In this document: one piece after another, positions 6,992 through 20,987 of the stretch
How the letters are laid out: each line of letters begins with the position of its first letter
How positions within the stretch are numbered: position 1 is the stretch's first letter
From: Atractiella rhizophila
Lineage: Eukaryota
DNA: 35,217 nt
Reading direction: 5' to 3'
NCBI GenBank assembly: GCA_021432655.1
Contig: MU271300.1
Coordinates: forward strand, 47,651 to 82,867
Program-made: the position numbers and the translations under genes
The notes under the pieces: generated by a model
The model's database searches: none
Told to the model about the DNA's origin: nothing
The model's input: the letters and a program-made list of their open reading frames with translations, nothing else

Positions 6992-7598
6992 ATGTCGCGT
7001 TCTATCGACCAACTTTCTCACAGAGAATTCGTTTCTCAAGTTCCTGTGTTTCCACCCTGTTCCTTCCCCTGTAGACTTGATACATAGTTTCTTTTGGACA
7101 ATATCCATCTATCTCTCATTCTGAACGCTTTTGCGTCCGTTCCTTTCCATCTATTCCCCTGCTGTGGCCTGTGGGAGCGTGAACATGCACATGAAGCAAT
7201 TTTTGCCAAGAATTGAGAGCCATGTTGTTCGATTAACTTTAGTGACCATCAACATAGATACCTCGACCACCTCCAGCGGCAAAATAGCCAACAGCTCCTC
7301 TCGGACGACACTGAAGCGGCCCTGAAGGCTGAGATAAGGTGAAAAAGGCGACCGAGGAGTTTTCCACGACGCCCTCAAGTGTGCTGTGTGGTAGTTAACT
7401 ACGGGGACAAAAGCTCAGCATTGCAGTGCAGTGCCACCGAGGCATTACTTTATTTTATACCGTACGCCCCTCTTTTGAACGTGCAAGGTCAAGCTGGAGG
7501 CTCCACGAGTCGTCGAACCGCCTGCGACCAGTGGAGTGAAGAAAGAACGGAGGGTCTCTCGTTCGCCGTCTATCGAAGTGCTCGCCTCGTCCTTTGAG

Positions 7599-7619
7599 CA
7601 GCAGCAGCAACAACAGCAG
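7599..7619 (+). repeat. (CAG/CAA)7 microsatellite just upstream of, and in frame with, the fusion gene ATG
   Basis: cagcagcagcaacaacagcag. Confidence 0.8.
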
Positions 7620-7664
7620 TCAGCGTCTTCAAATAATTCCAACAACTATTTATTGGAGAAAAGG

Positions 7665-10600
7665 ATGTCTCTCCGCTCTTATCTCACAGGTTCCTCCAAA
7701 TCCTCTTCTTCCCAGTCGTCTTCCTCTCAACCAGCTCCGAATTCGACACCGCCGAAGCCTCCAGCGCAAAAGACGATTTCGAGCAGCACGAGTGCGAGGG
7801 AGAGGATAGAGAGATTCAACCAACGTTCGCGGCCTTCATCCATCGTCGGTCCGCCTTCTTCCACTCCTCCCAATGGGACGAATGGAAATCCTATCCTCAC
7901 TTCACACAAAATAGCGGCCTCCTTATCAAGGAAGCCTTCGGTCAAGTCTTCCGTTCAGGCTATGAGTTCAAGTGCGAGCCCGGTCACGGAAATGAAGGAG
8001 TTGAAGGAAGAGGATTTTATCATGCCGAAGGAATTGAAGGGCAGTGAGCTCCCTCCTCTCGTCGTTTCTGCAAACGGTCCGGCGAACGGACAAATGCACG
8101 TCAGTGGGTCGTCGTCGTCCGCTCTCCCTCCTCCGTCGAGGAACGAACCAGCAAAGGAACTTGCTACTCCTCCGGTCCCTATTCCTGCTCCTGCGCCGAC
8201 GCCTGCTCCTGTTCCAACAACCGGCCTCACAATTCCAACAGAAGTATTTGTTCAAGCTCCAACACCTGTCGTCGAGCCGAAACCGTCGCTCCCAGCAGTT
8301 GCCCCTACAGCTCCCCCCACCACAGAAGAGAGACAACAAGACACCCTCTCTCCTGACTCACAGACGCAAGCTTCTCCTCAAACCCTTCAGCGATCGGGCT
8401 CTCTCTCACGCTCGGGCTCCCTTTCTCGCTCTGGCTCCCTCTCCCGCTCGCACCAAGGCCGTTCCAGCATCTCGTACAAATCCACACCATCGAACGTCGC
8501 AGTTCAACCCCCAGCTCACACACTTCCCGTCACCCCTCTTGCTCAGACTCAATCCCAGCCGCAGGTGGGTGAGAGTCACCCGATTACGTCGGTGATCGAT
8601 ATCTCAAAAGTGCATCCCGCTTCCTTTGTGGGCAGTCATGCCCACGACCACCATTCCGAAGCATCGACCAGCACAGCCGCCGAGGGTGGACATCAGTGGC
8701 TGGTGGTCATTATACCGCCGATGCATTTGCCGCACGATCCACCTGCCCATGGAGTTCACAGTCTGGGATATGGCCCCGCGGCGAAGTTTGGAGGAGGAGT
8801 ATTGCTCAGGCTGGAGAGGACTGTCCGTGTTCCTCCCTCTTTATGTGGAGGAGAAAGCTAACGCGAACAATTTCACGGCATAGATGAACCAACAGCTAAC
8901 GAGTATCGCTCGCGCTTTCTCCCTTCCATCAATCATGGGTGTCGCACTCTACCTTAGCCTTCCACCCCCAATGCCAATGTATCCAATGATGGGAATGGGC
9001 GGCGGGATGGGCGGGATGGATGGCATGAACATGGAGTTCGGATTGAAACCTCGGCTGAGTGAGGAGATTTGGTCCGCAGTTTGGGCTGGCCTCTGGGACG
9101 GAGAAGCAGAGGGAACAAGTCCTACCAAGGCTCCTGGCGCCGCAACTGCGATGGGAGGAATGGGCATGCACATGATGAACATGCAGCCGATGCAAGGGAT
9201 GGGAGGAATGGGAATGATGGGAATGGGATGGGGCGGATGGCGGATTCGTAAGTTCTTATGTTCTTTAGTTCAAAAGGCATGAGTTGACAATATTCCGTTA
9301 TGTGTACAACAGCGATCGTAGCACGTCTTGAATTTGACATCGACACTCGGAAAGCTCGCTGGTACGAGCAGTGGCTCGCCAACGCAGGTCCTCATCAGTC
9401 AATACCCCACCACCCTCAACAAGCTTACCCTCAGCACCCTCAATACCGAGCCTCTCGATCCACTTCTTCCATCTATCGCTCGTCCATGGACATGAGAGGA
9501 GCGAACGTGCATGGTGTCATGGGTGATGGCGAGATGCTGAACAACCACGATTCCCCTTCCAAGCGACACGATGGGCTCGTGCCTATCGGCGCTGGAGGAG
9601 GAGTGAGGAAGATGTATCTTACAGGGGAAGACGGCTCGCCGGATCTAAAAAGGAGCGGAAGCCAGAAGAAGCTCTCGCTCCTTGCAGCGGGCAGGGCCGC
9701 TTATCTTACACGGTCGGACAGTGGATGGGGGAGACGAGGTCATTCAAAAAATCCTTCCCTTCAGGAGGTTACAGAGCCCGACTCCGGATTTGTTGATACC
9801 GCTGGTACCACCACTGCGATGGATGGAATGACAATGCGCGACGTGGATGGGAAGAAGATTCCAATTTCAAAGGTGTGGACCGGCCCCGTCGCAGGTCCTA
9901 ACGGTGAAGAACTGGTCGATGAACTCCTCGACTCCTGGCCTCCCACTCCTGATTCCCCAGACCGTCTTCCATCTCCAGATCTTGCGGAAAGATTGATGGG
10001 AGCTCTCTCTACCCCCGCCTTGCTGAATATGAATGGGACGTTCGGAAGGCTGCACATGGACATGGTGGGTGAAGGAAGGAGGAGAGAACCTGAACTCGAG
10101 ACCCCCATCGAGACTAGGAGGAAATACTTAGCTTGGGAGCGCAGGCCAATGCATCTTGTTGGGGTTGACCGGGAAACAGAGAGCAGGATGAGGCAGTTGA
10201 AGGATATCAGTGAACCGACGCCGACTCCAAAGGAGAAAGAAGAGTTCCAAGAGGTTCAGAAGAGACAGCTGATGAAATTGGGAATGGTGGAGGAGGGAGA
10301 GGAACAATTGGTACAGGGAGAACATCAGCATGACAGGAGGACGAGCGCTGCCGAATATCCTAGGAATCTCTATGAGCTCTACTTGGCTCAGTATCCCAGT
10401 TTCAACCTCTATCCGAAAGGCATCGTCATTAATCTACCCTTCGACATGAAACAGAAGCAGTTCTTCCAACGATATCCCCTCAACCTCTACCTGACCTACC
10501 CACCAGTACGAGCATCTTTGTATCCGTTTACGGGACCCATCATCAAGGCACCAGATGTGCGATACATGAAAGTGATCAACTCAGAGACTCGCTATCCTCT

Positions 10601-13574
10601 TGATCTCTATCAGCTTTATCTTGGGGGTGCTCCAAAGCTCTACTATGTTCGAGGACCACTTTACCGCCAACCTCAAGGACCGCCGCCTCCCCCAAAACGG
10701 TACCCGCTTAACCTGTACCAAATCTATACGCCTCAGTTCCCTCGACTTTTCCTCATTCGCGGTCCCCTTGTTAAAATCCCCGACGTTGCCTACATGAAGG
10801 TGCATGCTTCTGACATCCGATACCCTCTAAACCTCTATTCCATCTATCCTGCTCCTTTCCCCACCCTCTTCAACGTTCGTGGACCTCGTATTGTACCCGT
10901 TCCGCCTGCACCACCAGTGAAGGATCGCCTTCCTTATCCCAGGAATTTGGACAACCTGTACCCTTCAGGCTACCCTAATTTCAAGCTCTACCCGAAACCT
11001 CGCGAGATCGACTTGCCTTTTGACATCAAACAGAAGCAATTCTTTGAACGATACCCTCTCAATCTCTATTTGACGTACCCACCAGTTCGACCGTCGCTGT
11101 ATCCCTTCACTGGACCAATCATTAAGGTGCCGGATGTACGGTACATGAATGTCATCAATTCTGGGACAAGGTATCCGTTGGATCTGTATCAGCTATACGT
11201 GGGATCTTCTCCAAAACTCTACTTCGTTCGAGGGCCCCTCTATTGCCAACCAAAGGGACCGCCCGCACCTCCAAAACGGTACCCACTCAACTTGTACCAA
11301 ATTTATGAACCCCAGTTTCCTCGACTGTTCCTCATTCGCGGCCCATTAGTCCAAATACCCGACATCTCCTACACCAAAGTCCATGCGGCCGATGTTCGTT
11401 ACCCTCTTAATTTGTATTCTATCTATCCCGCTCCATTCCCAACGCTCTTCAACGTTCGGGGACCACTTGTTGTACCCGTTCCCCCGGCAAAACCTGTCAA
11501 GGAGAAACTTCCTTACCCAAGGAATCTCTACAACCTTTATCCTGCCGGATACCCCAACTTCAAGCTTTACCCCAGTGGAGTAGTAATCAACTTACCTTTC
11601 GACATGAAACAAAAGCAGTTTTTCGAACGGTATCCTCTCAATCTCTACCTGACGTATCCGCCTGTGCGACCTTCGCTGTACCCCTTCACCGGACCGATCA
11701 TCAAAGTGCCTGATGTGCGATACATGCAAGTTGCAAATGTTCATGTTCGGTACCCCGTTAATCTGTATCAGCTTTACCCCGGATCGTCTATCTTTTTCAA
11801 TATTCGAGGCGCTCTCTACCCCCCAGTCGGCACCAGAATATCGACAGAAGCTGTTCCTGAATCTGCTGCGGAGAACGAAGAGTTGGAAATGGAGCCTCCT
11901 TCCCCGACCCGCCTCCCTTCTGCCGATCTAGCGGGCAGATTAGCGGGAAGTATCCCACCAACAGCAGTTCTAGACGGACACTTCCAAATTCCCGAGAAGC
12001 AATATCCTCAATACGAAGGTGCGCGGAAGGAGAATGACATGGAAGATCGCAAGTACAAGTGGAAGATGGTGGAAGCTGATGGGGAGGTAAAGCAAGTACC
12101 ATTAGCCATTCACTCGCTCGACACTCCAGATAGGGAGGCGGCAATGGAGCAGGAGCAGCGGAAGAATATGACGAAGATAATGGTAGATGACGGGGAAGGC
12201 ACAAATAGGCAGCTAGTCCTCAGTCCCGATGAGCCACGACCCCCCGTCCAACGTCCATTAAGCTCCAACAATCCCTATGCCAAGATGGTAGATGCTCCCC
12301 TGGAATCGGGGCATGTTCCAGAACCTCTGCGAGTGGAGATTGACGACAATCGAAATCCGTTTGACGATGACGCCGGACCGACAAGTGGAGTGGAAGAAAT
12401 CTCCTTTTCTCCGGTATGAAACTCTCCGTCTTCTCTAAAGTTTTTAATAAGTTACTAACTCCTCTCCTCAGCCCGGCACACCTGAAATCCCTTACAGTCA
12501 ATCACCTGATACCATTTCTGACGGTGTTTTAAGCGCCAACGATCCGCGTTTCCAGATGGGTCTCATGCAAACGTCGAACGGTCATCTTGACGTCGGCCCA
12601 TACGGTGCCAGCTCTAACGGGTTAACTTCCCCAAGATCACCAGGAGCCGATTCTGATGTTTCTCAATACGCCACGGTTTACCCAAGATCGGAAGAAGGTA
12701 TCACAGCTTCATCTGCAGAACTACCTCCTTTCGGGGATTACCCAGATCCAGTTGTCTTCTCTTTCAATCAACAAGATGAGCTCTCCGAAGCCCTCGCAGA
12801 ATTCGTGCTCGAAGCTCAAAATCAGTCCATCCGTCTGCGTGGGCGCTTCACAGTGGCCCTTTCCGGTGGCTCGTTACCCAAGCTGATGACTCCCGGACTG
12901 ATCGAGAATCCTCGAGTACAATGGGACAAATGGATTATCTTCTTTGCAGACGAACGCCTCGTTCCCCTAGATCATCCCGACTCCAACTACAAATCTTGGA
13001 TGGATCAACTTCTGGCTCACGTTCCTCTTGACGATTGGCAAATTCGCAACATCAGGCCTTACGACGAGCTGGAGACCAAACCGGGAGACGTTGCAGAGCA
13101 AGTTACTGAAGCTTATGAGGCTTCCCTCACCGAGGTGTTTGGAACCATGGAAAAGGCACCTGTTTTTGATCTAGTGCTTTTGGGGATGGGCGAGGATGGG
13201 CACACTGTGAGTTTCCCAATCAGGAATGAAAATTGGGGGCTAATGGCTTTATGAAGGCATCGCTTTTCCCTGGTCACCCCCTCCTTAAAGAGCAGGAATG
13301 GTTCGTCGTTTGGATTGGAGATTCTCCCAAGCCTCCGTCTTATCGCATCACCTTCACATATCCAATGATCAACAGTGCAAGACGAATAGCTTTTGTAGCC
13401 ACAGGTTCCGGAAAACAGGCTGCTCTCCGTGATGTGCTCGAGAATGATGAATCTCAGTTACCAGCGGCGATGGTTAGGTTGAGAAATCATCCTATCGTTT
13501 GGTTCGTAGACGAAGCCGCCAGCCAAGGGACGAACTACACGCTTTCTGCTTTTTGGGACGAAGAAGATCAGTGA
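7665..13574 (+). CDS. Giant (~1,891 aa) fusion protein: disordered Ser/Pro N-terminus + uncharacterised domain + Tyr/Pro repeat array + C-terminal 6-phosphogluconolactonase domain. Exons 7665-8822, 8884-9247, 9313-12413, 12472-13206, 13257-13574
   Basis: Four GT-AG introns all preserve frame (phases 0,1,0,0) and give one open frame of 5676 nt; intron 3 has a clear ACTAAC branch point and CAG acceptor. The 6PGL domain reads FTVALSGGSLP, DERLVPLDHPDSNY, FDLVLLGMGEDGH|TASLFPGH, DSPKPPSYRITFT, ATGSGK. The start codon is uncertain because the frame is open upstream to 7479. Confidence 0.8.
8391..8450 (+). repeat. 18-nt coding tandem repeat encoding (RSGSLS)3RS
   Basis: cgatcgggctctctctca cgctcgggctccctttct cgctctggctccctctcc cgctcg: codons differ, peptide identical. 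Confidence 0.85.
10356..11825 (+). repeat. Coding higher-order tandem repeat: 579-nt (193-aa) unit x ~2.5, each made of five 36-40 aa monomers starting YP[RLV][ND]L[YD]
   Basis: YPRNL starts at 10356, 10935 and 11514 (exact 579-nt spacing); monomer lengths 39+40+36+40+38=193 aa; 13 monomers in total, the last truncated. Confidence 0.97.
12740..13574 (+). other. 6-phosphogluconolactonase (SOL/DevB, glucosamine-isomerase fold) domain within the fusion gene
   Basis: Family motifs SGGS, DER..P..H..SNY, LLGMGEDGHTASLFP, PKPP..RIT and ATG..K are all present. Confidence 0.95.
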
Positions 13575-18254: not shown

Positions 18255-20987
18255 ATGAGCAGCCAGAACTACCAGGGAGGGTCCCACAATGACGATCCAT
18301 ACAGCAACTACGGGTATGGGGAAACGAGCGACTGGCGTGGAGGTCATAAGAGGCACTATGATGACGCGGGTGGGCACTACGGGGGAGGCTTCAAAAGAGG
18401 ACGGTATGAGGACGTGAGTTCTGCAAATACGTCCCACCTTGTCAATTGAGAGGTTGAACCGGTGTTCTCTTTTTCAAAGGATCAACCCTCATATCGAGAT
18501 CGAGGAGAGCGTGATTTTGGACGGGGTGACTTTGGGGAAGGAAGGGGTCGAGGAGGTGGGAGGGGGAGGGGAGGGTACAAAGGAAGGGGAAACCCTTCTC
18601 TTTGGATGCAGGACCAACAGGCTTTCCAGCCTGAGGGACCTTACTCCAACGACCGTTCAGATGCCAAAGGCCGTGATCGTGACCGACATGACCTCTCTCC
18701 TCCTTCTCAATCAGTCATCTTCCTCGGTCTCCCAATAACAGTCGATTCTGAGCAACTCCGACAATATCTTGAATCTCTTGGCGCGGTTGTCGACTCTACA
18801 GTCATCATTGTGGACAAGATGACGGGACTTTCGAAGAGGTTTGGTTTCGCCAAGTTTGGCAGCGTCGAGCATGCGAGAAGCTTCGTAGAGCCCAATTACC
18901 CTTTTATTAACTGGCCAGATGAACTGGGAGAGAATTGTAGGGTAAAAATTGACTACTCGCAAAGTCAGGAGAAGGGCCCGAGAGGAGTGATGGTTGGAAG
19001 TCACGGTGAAGGAGTGTTGCGACCTGTTGCGGGAACAGAGGATATTCCAGGTGCGCTATTGCTGTCTCACTCCTTATTCGAACTACAAGACGTATGCAGA
19101 GGGTGCTGTCGATCGAACGCTGCTTGTCAACGATGGGACGAGGGATATCGGCACTGCCCCCAGCCATGTTCTCCTTGTTCGTGGCCTTGATCCTCTGACT
19201 ACCGACCAAGAAATCTGCGATTCCATTCTTGGAATAACTCAACTGGAAGCCATACGGAATGGAGGCTTGAAGCAGATTCGGGTGATCAAGGACAGAATGA
19301 CGCGAGCGAGCTGGGGGTACTGTTTTCTCGTATTCACTGATGTTCAAGTCCGTATCCCTCTTCGTTTCTCTTTTACCCCTTAAAACTATTGTGGATAGCT
19401 CGCATCTCAAGTACTGGGCTTCATCCTCAATCCCCAAGCATTTCCTACAGGATTCCGAGTTCGCCAATCACCCGTCGCCGTTTCGTTTTCTCACGGCAAT
19501 TCCTTCATCCCGGTTTATGCCTACACCGATCAAGCTTTCAACTACAACGGCACGATGCTTCGCTACTGGGATGAGAAGGCCATGACGTCCATCAAGAATC
19601 TGGTAGAGGATGCAGCTCCCAAACCGAAGCCCAAACCTGCAGAGGAAGACGACGACCTTGCTGCGCTCCTCGACGAGTTGGACGATCTCCCACCTCCTCC
19701 AGCAGTTCCAGCGAAGGAGACAGAGCCATTGAGTCTCGAAATCGTCGGTGGCATCAAGAGTTCTGTTCCTATCGGACCCGAGATCCCTCTGAGCCGAATA
19801 CCTCCTCCTCCTCCATCCACGGCCGACATTCCCCCTCCTCCTCCAACCGCAGTGACGCAGCCGCCAGCCATGCAGGAACCGAAGCCGGTCGTAGAGAAGA
19901 TGCAGCCTATCAAGCTGACTGCGAAAACCACAGACCCAACAGCGACACCGAAAGGTTTGTCCTTGATTTAAGTATTTCGAGCCCTAGGCTCATGAGGTTT
20001 TTTCTAGTAGCGGAGAAGAAGGCAAAACAACCTGCAGCGGATAAAGAGCAGATGGTCGGTGCGCGCAAGGTTAGCACAGTCTGCTTGATTGTTTGAGAGC
20101 AGATAGTAACTCCTTTGGGACAGACTGCGGCAACGATCAGCAAGTGGAATACTAAGAAGCAAGAGTTGGCTTCGAAGCCAACGGGCAGTGGGAAGCCCAG
20201 TGGATCTATAGTAGTCTTCCAAGCGTCGCCCCTTCCGAGTTCTAACGTTCGTGCCTGTCACTCAGCCGACCGTTGCTCCTTCCTCCTCGAACGCTACACC
20301 CATTGGCTCCAGCTCGACTCCAACAGCCGAAGACGAATTCGAATACGCTGATACCAGCAAAATGTCCTGCCTCCTTTGCTTACGACAGTTCAAGACGCTC
20401 CCCGAGTTGAAGAAACACAACGAGCTTTCTGCTTTGCACAAGGCGCGTTCATTCCTGATGCTATGATCGTTCTAATACCATTCGCACAGACTAACTTGCA
20501 AGACGCATCCAAGGTATCTGCAGCAAAAACCCGCAAAGGGAACGTGACACCAAAAACAGAAGCTCCAAAGTACCGTGATCGTGCTTTGGAACGGCGAGAG
20601 GCTTATGGTCAGCCTGACAAACCGGAGATTGAAGCAAAGTCGTCGAAGCGACAAGAAGCCCCTCCACCGCCTCCCGTGCAACCCAATAAAGAAGGTATCG
20701 AGGAAAATAACAAGGGAAGTAAGATGCTTGAGGCGATGGGTTGGAATAAGGGACAAGGACTCGGAAGTACACAAAGCGGCAGAGTGGATCCCGTCATGGC
20801 TTATTCCCATGCTCAAGGAGTCGGTACGTCCATTGCCACTCTTTGGTTGAAGGCTTTGTTCATGGAATCGGTGCCAGGATTGGGAGCTGTTAAGCCGACG
20901 TTGGCTGGACAGTATGAAGACACTGCACGAGGGTACAGCCAGAAATCGAAGGATAAGGCGAGGGAGCGGTTTGAAAATACATCTTAA
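18255..20987 (+). CDS. RBM5/RBM10-like splicing regulator (2 RRM + C2H2 zinc finger + G-patch), multi-intron
   Basis: RRM1 SVIFLGLP..KRFGFAKF; RRM2 HVLLVRGL..SWGYCFLVF; CLLCLRQFKTLPELKKHNELSALH; KYRDRALERR; G-patch NKGSKMLEAMGWNKGQGLG; ends ARERFENTS*. Confidence 0.92.

What the first reader, a model, noticed from the sequence alone, without database searches (positions are those of the whole stretch)
10356..11825. Higher-order Tyr/Pro-rich protein repeat (5 monomers x 2.5) under strong purifying selection
Seen: 13 monomers with consensus (R)YP[LR][ND]LY-x-[LIT]Y-x4-P-x-[LF][YF]-x2-[RT]GP, arranged A-B-C-D-E with an exact 579-nt period. Monomers B and D share the tail K/Q-x-PD[VI]xY[MT]xV, and C and E have proline-rich tails, pointing to nested duplications. 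Copies 2 and 3 share the identical 33-aa stretch RYPLNLYLTYPPVRPSLYPFTGPIIKVPDVRYM (starts 11049 and 11628), yet by hand count 17 of the 33 codons differ, all synonymously. The repeat is therefore old and conserved at protein level, not recent slippage. I do not recognise the family. Inference: a new small repeat module, possibly self-assembling or a multivalent binding platform; tyrosine cross-linking or phosphorylation is possible.
Basis: partly seen in the sequence, partly recalled or inferred. Interest (0 to 1): 0.8.

Follow-up and report, generated by a model that had tools for sequence, protein, structure and literature searches.

The report
Tyr-Pro repeat array in fungal scaffold protein
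The repeat is real, expressed and strongly conserved; it is an expanded form of a short tyrosine-proline motif shared by an unstudied family of large mushroom-type fungal proteins, and here the protein is spliced onto a sugar-metabolism enzyme.

Summary
There are 13 monomers of 36-40 aa in an A-B-C-D-E order with an exact 579-nt period. dN/dS between units is 0.05-0.07 and silent sites are near saturation. The identical 33-aa stretch differs at 17 of 33 codons, all silently.

Three points are new.
1. The 1039-aa ORF is only exon 3 of a longer gene. RNA-library contigs show GT..AG splices that add two upstream exons. A 58-nt intron holds the apparent stop codon. Its removal joins the repeat protein in frame to a complete 6-phosphogluconolactonase domain, giving a model of at least 1891 aa.
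2. The monomers derive from a 20-aa motif, YPxxLxxIYPxxYPxFxLYP. This motif is shared with large "hypothetical proteins" of many Agaricomycetes. These proteins also share an N-terminal ubiquitin-like domain and an RLPS motif.
3. No Pfam model or paper describes the family.

The array is probably a multivalent docking or self-association platform in a largely disordered scaffold. That mechanism is inferred, not shown. Extracellular tyrosine cross-linking is unlikely.

This is an undescribed motif family with a lineage-specific higher-order repeat. Interest is moderate.

The parts
7665..8822 (+). Exon 1 as modelled, from the first ATG. The frame is open from 7479, so the true start may lie upstream. 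It is Ser/Pro-rich and ends with the start of the ubiquitin-like domain (8688-8822).
   Evidence: Frame analysis. GT..AG joint 8822>8884 in one contig of run X1. Domain profile hit at residues 342-412.
8823..8883 (+). Intron 1 (61 nt, GT..AG)
   Evidence: Joint in X1; phase fits.
8884..9247 (+). Exon 2: the middle of the ubiquitin-like domain, interrupted by two Met/Gly-rich inserts
   Evidence: Profile A4 hits residues 342-412, 438-470 and 506-530 of the spliced model, with inserts between them.
9248..9312 (+). Intron 2 (65 nt, GT..AG). It contains the ATG at 9300 that heads the mechanical ORF.
   Evidence: Joint 9247>9313 in X7 (metatranscriptome RNA) and X1.
9313..12413 (+). Exon 3: the end of the ubiquitin-like domain (to 9380), a linker, the first RLPS motif, the repeat array, the second RLPS motif and an acidic tail
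9936..9992 (+). First WPPTPDSPDRLPSPDLAER motif (family 'RLPS' motif)
   Evidence: Invariant columns in alignments A2 and A3; regex.
10356..11825 (+). Tyr/Pro-rich array: 13 monomers, 490 aa, residues 856-1345 of the spliced model. Composition: P 18%, Y 12%, L 12%.
10356..10934 (+). Higher-order unit 1 (A1-E1)
10935..11513 (+). Higher-order unit 2 (A2-E2)
11514..11825 (+). Partial unit 3 (A3, B3 and a shortened C3)
11904..11939 (+). Second RLPS-type motif (PTRLPSADLAGR)
   Evidence: Regex on the spliced model
12414..12471 (+). Intron 3 (58 nt, GTATGA...TACTAAC...CAG). The ORF's apparent stop codon (12417-12419) lies inside it.
   Evidence: Joint 12412>12471 (cut +1) in X11 (root metatranscriptome RNA) and X1; sequence.
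12472..13206 (+). Exon 4: a 100-aa linker, then the first half of the 6-phosphogluconolactonase domain
   Evidence: Pfam PF01182, E 4.6e-39, profile positions 2-142. In frame with exon 3.
13207..13256 (+). Intron 4 (50 nt, GT..AG)
   Evidence: Joint 13206>13257 in X11 and X1
13257..13574 (+). Exon 5: the second half of the 6-phosphogluconolactonase domain and the stop codon
   Evidence: Pfam PF01182, E 3.8e-25, profile positions 143-225

Best explanation
The array is a lineage-specific higher-order expansion (five diverged monomer types, copied about 2.5 times) of a family-wide 20-aa tyrosine-proline motif, YPxxLxxIYPxxYPxFxLYP. It sits in a large, mostly low-complexity scaffold protein that is probably from an Agaricomycete. 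The protein has an N-terminal ubiquitin-like (PB1-like) domain, RLPS motifs and the YP array. In this genome it is spliced to a C-terminal 6-phosphogluconolactonase domain.

I read the array as a multivalent interaction platform. Each monomer would present one aromatic-proline docking site, and the tails would add subtype-specific contacts. Many copies of a partner, or of the protein itself, could then be gathered, which would position or concentrate the attached enzyme.

Shown here: the repeat, its purifying selection, its expression, the gene structure, the enzyme fusion, and the homology of the monomers to the family motif. Inferred: that the motifs are binding sites, what they bind, and any effect on the enzyme.
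For: - Repeat and constraint: dN/dS is 0.05-0.07 with silent sites near saturation. Cores and tails are both constrained, at 0.063 and 0.078.
- Variation between strains or species: of the 26 listed variants in exon 3, 22 are silent. Within the array, 11 of 12 are silent. The call notes that 31 further variants were not listed.
- Expression and gene model: four GT..AG joints appear in RNA-library contigs. The join to the enzyme exon is seen in 2 of the 4 runs laid. The spliced frame is open for 1891 aa.
- Family motif: a profile of 28 motif instances from 8 other proteins finds 13 of 13 monomers. A-type monomers match at full length, with i-E from 5.5e-10 to 7.9e-8.
- Family breadth: a profile search gives 21 hits. 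Eleven are NCBI hypothetical proteins of Suillus, Leucogyrophana, Rickenella, Hydnomerulius, Agrocybe, Paxillus, Melanogaster, Hohenbuehelia, Laetiporus and Armillaria, 1256-1821 aa long.
- Motif-island pattern typical of docking motifs: in 7 of 7 pairs of related proteins the motif cores are better conserved than the linkers, for example 67% against 24%. Copy number differs between two Suillus species, 13 against 8 strict matches.
- Interaction-type N-terminal domain: the AF2 model has pLDDT 72.4. All the best fold matches are beta-grasp domains, with PB1 domains first (Z 7.5, rmsd 2.9 over 78 residues).
- Link to the enzyme in other lineages: P0005 runs from YP motifs into a diverged 6PGL-like start (BLASTP E 3e-9). 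P0036 has a 6PGL domain (41% identity, E 7e-40) followed by four YP motifs and an RLPS motif.
Against: - No partner is known and no binding was shown.
- In this protein the linkers between motifs are almost as constrained as the cores. The family-wide spacing of 36-48 aa is regular. Mean hydropathy is 0.47, slightly on the 'folded' side of the charge-hydropathy boundary of 0.44. All three points fit a folded repeat domain as well as they fit a docking array.
- The core-versus-linker comparison can be inflated by aligning non-equivalent repeat copies.
- RNA evidence comes from short contigs. No single contig spans both the array and the enzyme, so a separate shorter enzyme transcript is not excluded.
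- The 11 named relatives carry no 6PGL domain: 21 of 21 hits have no precomputed Pfam domain. The enzyme link is therefore not a family-wide property.
Confidence: 0.45

Rival explanations
1. Folded repeat domain. Each monomer of about 40 aa is a structural unit (short beta strands separated by prolines), and the units stack into a solenoid- or propeller-like domain. The five monomer types occupy non-equivalent positions.
For: - Tails are as constrained as cores (omega 0.078 against 0.063).
- Monomer length is regular at 36-40 aa, and the family-wide spacing is mostly 36-48 aa.
- Hydropathy is just above the disorder boundary.
- Aromatic and aliphatic residues are abundant.
- The low-confidence AF2 model shows only short strands.
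Against: - Proline is 18% of residues.
- In relatives the linkers vary strongly in sequence and length, with spacings from 25 to 275 aa.
- Copy number changes between congeners.
- No confident fold was obtained, but that run had no alignment, so this point is weak.
Confidence: 0.25
2. Homotypic condensate former. The array acts as a sticker-and-spacer sequence. Tyr-Pro and Tyr-Arg contacts drive self-coacervation, as reported for the RNA polymerase II C-terminal domain, and so concentrate the enzyme domain.
For: - Composition is P 18%, Y 12% and R 7%, with a net charge of +36.
- Tyr-Pro contacts are reported to drive phase separation of the Pol II CTD (PMC10519987; abstract and passages read).
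- The rest of the protein is low-complexity, including Met/Gly-rich inserts.
Against: Sticker-spacer sequences usually tolerate substitutions as long as composition is kept. Here 33 residues are identical across copies with saturated silent sites, which points to specific recognition.
Confidence: 0.17
3. ESCRT/Bro1-domain docking. The YPxxL cores are YPXnL motifs bound by ALIX-type proteins (PalA/Rim20 or Bro1 in fungi).
For: - 13 of 13 monomers contain YPxxL.
- Fungal PalA is described as binding YPXL/I motifs in PacC (recalled; papers seen only as a search listing).
Against: - The motif is short and degenerate.
- The conserved second, third and fourth YP dipeptides are not explained by this reading.
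- The residue before YP is R in 10 monomers, P in 2 and E in 1. It is never the L of the LYPXnL form (that form is recalled).
- In the named relatives the commonest form is YPxFxLYP, with different spacing.
Confidence: 0.08
4. Secreted or wall-bound structural protein hardened by tyrosine cross-links.
For: High Tyr and Pro content resembles extensins and adhesive proteins (recalled resemblance only).
Against: - There is no hydrophobic N-terminal or membrane-like stretch. The highest 19-residue hydropathy is 1.49, and the first 40 residues are hydrophilic.
- The protein has an intracellular-type ubiquitin-like domain and is fused to a pentose-phosphate enzyme.
Confidence: 0.03

Closest known systems
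Unnamed family of large Agaricomycete 'hypothetical proteins' (for example the Suillus hirtellus BDR06DRAFT_1006101, Hydnomerulius pinastri HYDPIDRAFT_23631 and Rickenella mellea BD410DRAFT_758810 proteins, as named)
   Same: - The N-terminal ubiquitin-like domain is shared; the profile hits the window protein in three pieces.
- RLPS motifs are shared.
- Arrays of YP motifs lie at a spacing of about 40 aa.
- None has a Pfam domain.
   Different: - The window protein uses the 6-2-4 spacing of YP dipeptides, whereas most motifs of the named relatives use 4-2-4.
- Its monomers have diverged into five types arranged in a higher-order repeat.
- It lacks the C-terminal KTHxxLH, LVLQRxRA and PWxHVWPY motifs of the named relatives.
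- It ends in a 6PGL domain.
Unnamed metagenome or Logan proteins P0002-P0010, P0036, P0039 and P0044 (the closest subgroup)
   Same: - They share the WPxTPxSPDRLPS motif, the LIExD...SEPSP motif and the 20-aa 6-2-4 YP motif (alignment A3).
- P0005 and P0036 are also joined to 6PGL-like sequence.
   Different: - They have only 1-6 strict 6-2-4 motifs each (P0036 has four further YP motifs of another spacing) and no five-type higher-order unit.
- In P0036 the enzyme domain comes first.
- In P0005 the 6PGL-like part is strongly diverged (26% identity; Pfam E 0.061, below threshold).
RNA polymerase II C-terminal domain heptads (YSPTSPS)
   Same: It is a tandem Tyr/Pro-rich repeat that works as a multivalent platform. 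Tyr-Pro contacts are reported to drive its self-association (PMC10519987).
   Different: Its period is 7 aa, not 36-40 aa. There is no sequence similarity, the protein context differs, and no homology is claimed.
YPXnL late-domain or PalA-binding motifs
   Same: A YPxxL core is present in every monomer.
   Different: The motif here is 20 aa long with four YP dipeptides. The upstream Leu is absent. Binding was not tested.
Known 6PGL fusion proteins (G6PD-6PGL of Plasmodium and chordate H6PD)
   Same: A 6-phosphogluconolactonase domain is fused to another polypeptide (PMC3148214; search listing and start of abstract only).
   Different: The partner here is not a pathway enzyme. It is a scaffold-like region of about 1,640 aa carrying repeat motifs.

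Membership tests
Agaricomycete YP-motif scaffold family (unnamed, no Pfam) | N-terminal conserved domain of about 135 aa (LVVViPP...IAREFnFPS...EFDIDxxKARW) | tested here: met
   A profile of 10 relatives (A4) hits the spliced window protein at 342-412, 438-470 and 506-530, with i-E 1.9e-16, 1.7e-4 and 1e-9. Two Met/Gly-rich inserts lie between the pieces.
Agaricomycete YP-motif scaffold family (unnamed, no Pfam) | RLPS motif (SPDRLPSxxLxxR) | tested here: met
   Two copies, at residues 723 and 1372 of the spliced model. The columns are invariant in A2 and A3.
Agaricomycete YP-motif scaffold family (unnamed, no Pfam) | Repeated 18-20-aa YP motif | tested here: met
   A profile built without window sequences finds 13 of 13 monomers. 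Three match at full length, and the rest match over the first 9-14 positions.
Agaricomycete YP-motif scaffold family (unnamed, no Pfam) | C-terminal KTHxxLH and LVLQRxRA motifs, and PWxHVWPY repeats, of the named relatives | tested here: not met
   Regex: 0 in the window protein. Among the 14 group-B relatives they occur in 9, 11 and 11. The window protein therefore belongs to a separate subgroup.
6-phosphogluconolactonase (Pfam PF01182, Glucosamine_iso) | Full-length match above the curated threshold | tested here: met
   Exon 4 scores 135 bits (profile positions 2-142) and exon 5 scores 89.5 bits (143-225). The cut-off is 27 bits.
6-phosphogluconolactonase (Pfam PF01182, Glucosamine_iso) | Lactonase activity | not testable with these tools
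   Conserved stretches such as SGGS, FADER and GxDGHTASLFPG are visible in the translation. Their role is recalled, not tested.
PB1 / ubiquitin-like beta-grasp domains | Beta-grasp fold | tested here: inconclusive
   The AF2 model of a relative's domain has pLDDT 72.4 and pTM 0.67. The Foldseek best match has E 7.6e-3 and is a PB1 domain. The VIA best match has Z 7.5, rmsd 2.9 A over 78 residues, and the listed top rows are beta-grasp domains. A Z under 8 can be a common arrangement. The PB1 acidic or basic interaction motifs were not examined.
ALIX/PalA-binding YPXnL motif | YPXnL core | tested here: met
   13 of 13 monomers contain YPxxL.
ALIX/PalA-binding YPXnL motif | Binding to a Bro1/V-domain protein | not testable with these tools
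   No partner sequence from this genome is available, because no genome is held.
Any described protein repeat family (Pfam-A) | Profile match | tested here: not met
   0 families at E<=1 for the 1039-aa ORF. The 9 nearest relatives gave none either, apart from one sub-threshold 6PGL hit.
Repeat-induced point mutation (RIP) as the cause of silent divergence | Excess of C>T and G>A transitions between copies | tested here: not met
   Transitions against transversions are 73/76, 47/54 and 55/54.

The most novel reading that the evidence does not exclude
The YP-motif array, together with the ubiquitin-like domain, defines an undescribed Agaricomycete scaffold system that is functionally coupled to the oxidative pentose-phosphate pathway. 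The same motif set is physically joined to a 6-phosphogluconolactonase(-like) domain in three sequences, and in both domain orders: the window and P0005 have scaffold then enzyme, and P0036 has enzyme then scaffold. This would be a Rosetta-stone signal that the scaffold tethers or condenses this enzyme, and perhaps its pathway partners, at a particular site in hyphae.
Probability: 0.2. Interest if true: 0.7.

Novelty: new variant of a known kind. Interest (0 to 1): 0.45.

Why it matters
The family occurs across several orders of mushroom-forming fungi as proteins of 1,250-1,800 aa. It has no Pfam model, and I found no paper on it in the library searched. A defined motif, a domain map and an expressed gene model make the family tractable.

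The window's version is useful for experiments in two ways. Its 193-aa unit is sharply defined and strongly constrained. Its fusion to a pentose-phosphate enzyme gives a concrete functional handle through activity, localisation and partners.

If the enzyme link is functional, it would be a new way of organising a central metabolic step. If it is not, this remains a well-conserved fungal repeat protein of unknown role.

Tried and rejected
- Own genome: none is held, so paralogues, a second 6PGL gene and synteny could not be checked.
- Earlier findings of this scan: nothing by place or by sequence.
- Word-indexed protein search with the array (residues 340-850): no hit among the 8000 candidates scored.
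- ESM Atlas: no usable hit.
- Two metagenome locus scans, one with unit alignment A1 and one with family alignment A2: patterns matched 502 and 597 stretches, and none was confirmed. No DNA context of relatives was obtained.
- AF2 of the whole array without an alignment: mean pLDDT 39.5, no usable fold. No fold search was run on it.
- Complex prediction with three copies of the 193-aa unit: verdict 'no answer', score 0.00, partner fold uncertain. This counts neither for nor against self-assembly.
- Profile of the N-terminal domain against PDB sequences: 0 hits at E<=10.
- Cluster look-up of the nearest relatives: no organism names.
- RIP as the source of silent divergence: rejected, because transitions and transversions are about equal.
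- Recent slippage or gene conversion: rejected, because silent sites are near saturation.
- Non-coding or spliced-out region: rejected.
- Literature: nothing relevant from the motif strings, 6PGL with N-terminal extension or Basidiomycota, 6PGL fusion with Agaricomycetes, or YP / Tyr-Pro repeat terms.
- Coverage gaps of 25-58 nt between the listed RNA contigs inside the array are not evidence of anything; 16 further pieces were not shown.
Full report
**Observation**

The window holds a 1039-aa ORF at 9300-12419 on the + strand. A pattern search finds 13 monomers beginning YPx[N/D]L, with the Y at 10356, 10473, 10593, 10701, 10821, 10935, 11052, 11172, 11280, 11400, 11514, 11631 and 11751. They form the order A-B-C-D-E, A-B-C-D-E, A-B-C'. 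The repeat finder recovers three copies spaced exactly 579 and 579 nt, with 74% and 62% nucleotide identity.

Nei-Gojobori counts:

| Pair | Codons | pS | pN | dN/dS |
|---|---|---|---|---|
| Units 1 and 2 | 193 | 0.681 | 0.119 | 0.072 |
| Units 2 and 3 | 104 | 0.748 | 0.192 | 0.049 |
| Units 1 and 3 | 104 | 0.825 (saturated) | 0.203 | not computable |

- Between units 1 and 2, 115 codons differ. Of these, 79 differ only silently and 36 change the residue.
- The 33-aa stretch at 11049 and 11628 is identical, with 17 of 33 codons differing, all silently.
- If the same 149 nucleotide differences are placed at random, a mean of 93 residues change (minimum 80 in 1000 trials), against 36 observed.
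- Differences fall 34/15/100 over the three codon positions. Transitions and transversions are about equal (73/76, 47/54, 55/54), so there is no RIP-like signature.
- Monomers of the same type are 66-90% identical across units. Between types, B-D is 48%, C-E 45% and D-E 46%, and the other pairs are 28-37%.

**The gene is larger than the ORF**

I laid contigs of three metatranscriptome RNA runs (X5, X7, X11) and one run guessed to be RNA (X1) on 7300-13400. This gave four GT..AG joints:

| Joint | Runs |
|---|---|
| 8822>8884 | X1 |
| 9247>9313 | X7, X1 |
| 12412>12471 (cut +1) | X11, X1 |
| 13206>13257 | X11, X1 |

- The first two joints attach two upstream exons. The ATG at 9300 lies inside intron 2.
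- The third joint removes a 58-nt intron (12414-12471, GTATGA...TACTAAC...CAG) that contains the ORF's apparent stop codon.
- After splicing, exon 3 continues in frame into 12472-13206 and 13257-13574. Together these exons cover Pfam PF01182 (6-phosphogluconolactonase) from profile position 2 to 225, at E 4.6e-39 and 3.8e-25.
- From the ATG at 7665 the spliced frame is open for 1891 residues. The frame is also open upstream to 7479, so the true start is uncertain.
- The array occupies residues 856-1345 of this model.
- Listed RNA-library contigs cover nearly all of the array, leaving gaps of 25-58 nt. The call notes that 16 pieces were not shown. No joint or indel lies inside the array in any of the 4 runs.

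Caveats: these are short contigs. None spans both the array and the enzyme. A separate enzyme transcript starting near 12556 is not excluded.

Of the 26 listed sequence variants in exon 3, 22 are silent. Inside the array, 11 of 12 are silent (31 further variants were not listed). Constraint is therefore also visible between strains or species.

**The monomers belong to a wider motif family**

- Pfam finds nothing in the ORF at E<=1.
- An exhaustive phmmer scan of 1.84 billion cluster representatives gave 9 hits at E<=1e-3 and none at E<=1e-10.
- All nine hits share three islands with the window protein: WPxTPxSPDRLPSxxLxxR, LIExD...SEPSP, and a 20-aa motif YPxSLxxIYPxxYPHFDLYP.
- A profile of these islands (A3) found 21 proteins among 8000 candidates scored. 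Eleven are NCBI hypothetical proteins of Suillus (2), Leucogyrophana, Rickenella, Hydnomerulius, Agrocybe, Paxillus, Melanogaster, Hohenbuehelia, Laetiporus and Armillaria, 1256-1821 aa long. All 21 lack any precomputed Pfam domain.
- A profile built from 28 motif instances in 8 relatives, with no window sequence, recognises all 13 monomers:

| Monomer type | Motif positions matched | i-E |
|---|---|---|
| A | full length | 5.5e-10 to 7.9e-8 |
| D, E | 1-14 | 3e-5 to 6e-5 |
| B | 1-12 or 1-13 | 1.4e-3 |
| C | 1-9 | 0.093 |
| C3 | 1-10 | 1.6e-4 |

- The named relatives mostly use a 4-2-4 spacing of the YP dipeptides (123 strict instances in 14 proteins). The window's subgroup uses 6-2-4.
- Successive motifs in relatives are mostly 36-48 aa apart, the same as the window's 36-40-aa monomers.

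So the ~40-aa YP unit is a family property. What is special here is the divergence into five types and the old, stable higher-order unit.

**The rest of the protein**

- The named relatives share an N-terminal domain of about 135 aa. Its profile (A4) hits the spliced window protein in three pieces (342-412, 438-470, 506-530), separated by Met/Gly-rich inserts. This independently supports the exon 1-2-3 model.
- AF2 on a relative's domain with a 10-row alignment gave pLDDT 72.4 and pTM 0.67.
- Foldseek's best matches are PB1 domains, Atg8/GABARAP and Ras-binding domains, with a best E of 7.6e-3.
- VIA-align's best match is a PB1 domain (2o2v_B; Z 7.5, rmsd 2.9 A over 78 residues). Other beta-grasp domains fill the list.
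- A ubiquitin-like fold is likely. PB1 membership is unproven.
- The window protein lacks three motifs common in the named relatives (KTHxxLH, LVLQRxRA, PWxHVWPY).
- It has no signal-peptide-like or membrane-like stretch.

**The link to the enzyme recurs**

- P0005 (898 aa, a single ORF) runs from YP and RLPS motifs into a diverged 6PGL-like start. BLASTP gives E 3e-9 and 26% identity over 107 residues. Pfam gives E 0.061, below threshold.
- P0036 (1343 aa, a single ORF) begins with a 6PGL domain (41% identity, E 7e-40). Four YP motifs and an RLPS motif follow it.
- The named Agaricomycete relatives show no such domain.
- Published 6PGL fusions that I could find are with G6PD (PMC3148214; listing and start of abstract only).

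**Mechanism**

Evidence for a docking or self-association array in a disordered scaffold:
- In 7 of 7 pairs of related proteins, the motif cores are better conserved than the linkers, for example 67% against 24% and 54% against 15%. Misaligned repeat copies could inflate this.
- Copy number differs between two Suillus species.
- The protein carries an interaction-type N-terminal domain.

Evidence against, favouring a folded repeat:
- In the window protein the tails are nearly as constrained as the cores (omega 0.078 against 0.063).
- Spacing is regular.
- Mean hydropathy (0.47) lies just above the disorder boundary (0.44).

Structure prediction of the array failed (pLDDT 39.5 without an alignment). 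That failure decides nothing.

A condensate role through Tyr-Pro contacts has a precedent in the Pol II CTD (PMC10519987; abstract and passages read). It fits poorly with residue-exact conservation.

A YPXnL/Bro1 reading rests only on a short core that is present in 13 of 13 monomers.

I put the multivalent-platform reading at 0.45, the folded repeat at 0.25, the condensate at 0.17, Bro1 docking at 0.08 and a cross-linked wall protein at 0.03.

**Novelty and verdict**

- The repeat is genuine, expressed and under strong purifying selection.
- It is a lineage-specific higher-order variant of an undescribed motif family whose members already sit in databases as hypothetical proteins.
- No Pfam model matches, and four literature searches found no description. 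These searches cover only the held library.
- The unexpected finding is the spliced fusion to 6-phosphogluconolactonase and its recurrence in two other sequences.
- Interest is moderate, at 0.45. The family and the enzyme link are worth a targeted follow-up, but nothing yet shows a new mechanism.

Noticed in passing
window 12414-12471: The stop codon that ends the long mechanical ORF lies inside a 58-nt intron, GTATGA...TACTAAC...CAG. An ORF-based or unspliced annotation would split one gene into a 'hypothetical protein' and a separate 6-phosphogluconolactonase.
   Followed up: yes
window 8962-9036 and 9136-9240: Two Met/Gly-rich low-complexity inserts (the segment is G 16%, M 13%) interrupt the ubiquitin-like domain compared with the named relatives. 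Their role is unknown. Methionine-rich low-complexity regions are known elsewhere as redox-sensitive (recalled).
   Followed up: partly
window 8391-8450: A short peptide repeat, SGSLSR x3, lies in the Ser/Pro-rich exon 1.
   Followed up: no
P0036 (1343 aa) and P0016 (519 aa), from an unnamed JGI source: A relative with the reverse domain order: the 6PGL domain comes first, then four YP motifs and a WPPTPPSPDRLPS motif. A 90%-cluster mate ends early, at 519 aa.
   Followed up: partly
P0005 residues 797-898: The 6PGL-like start has lost conserved stretches seen in the window protein (SGGS and DER positions in the alignment). It may be a non-catalytic domain, as in yeast Sol1/Sol2 (recalled).
   Followed up: partly
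window 18606-20987 (+): A neighbouring multi-exon gene has an RRM (PF00076, E 6.3e-6) and a G-patch (PF01585, E 6.2e-13), so it is a splicing-factor-like protein. It is unrelated to the finding.
   Followed up: no
window 7479-7664: The reading frame of exon 1 stays open upstream of the first ATG, and an RNA-library contig (X7, 7567-7762) runs through it. The true N-terminus may lie further upstream.
   Followed up: no
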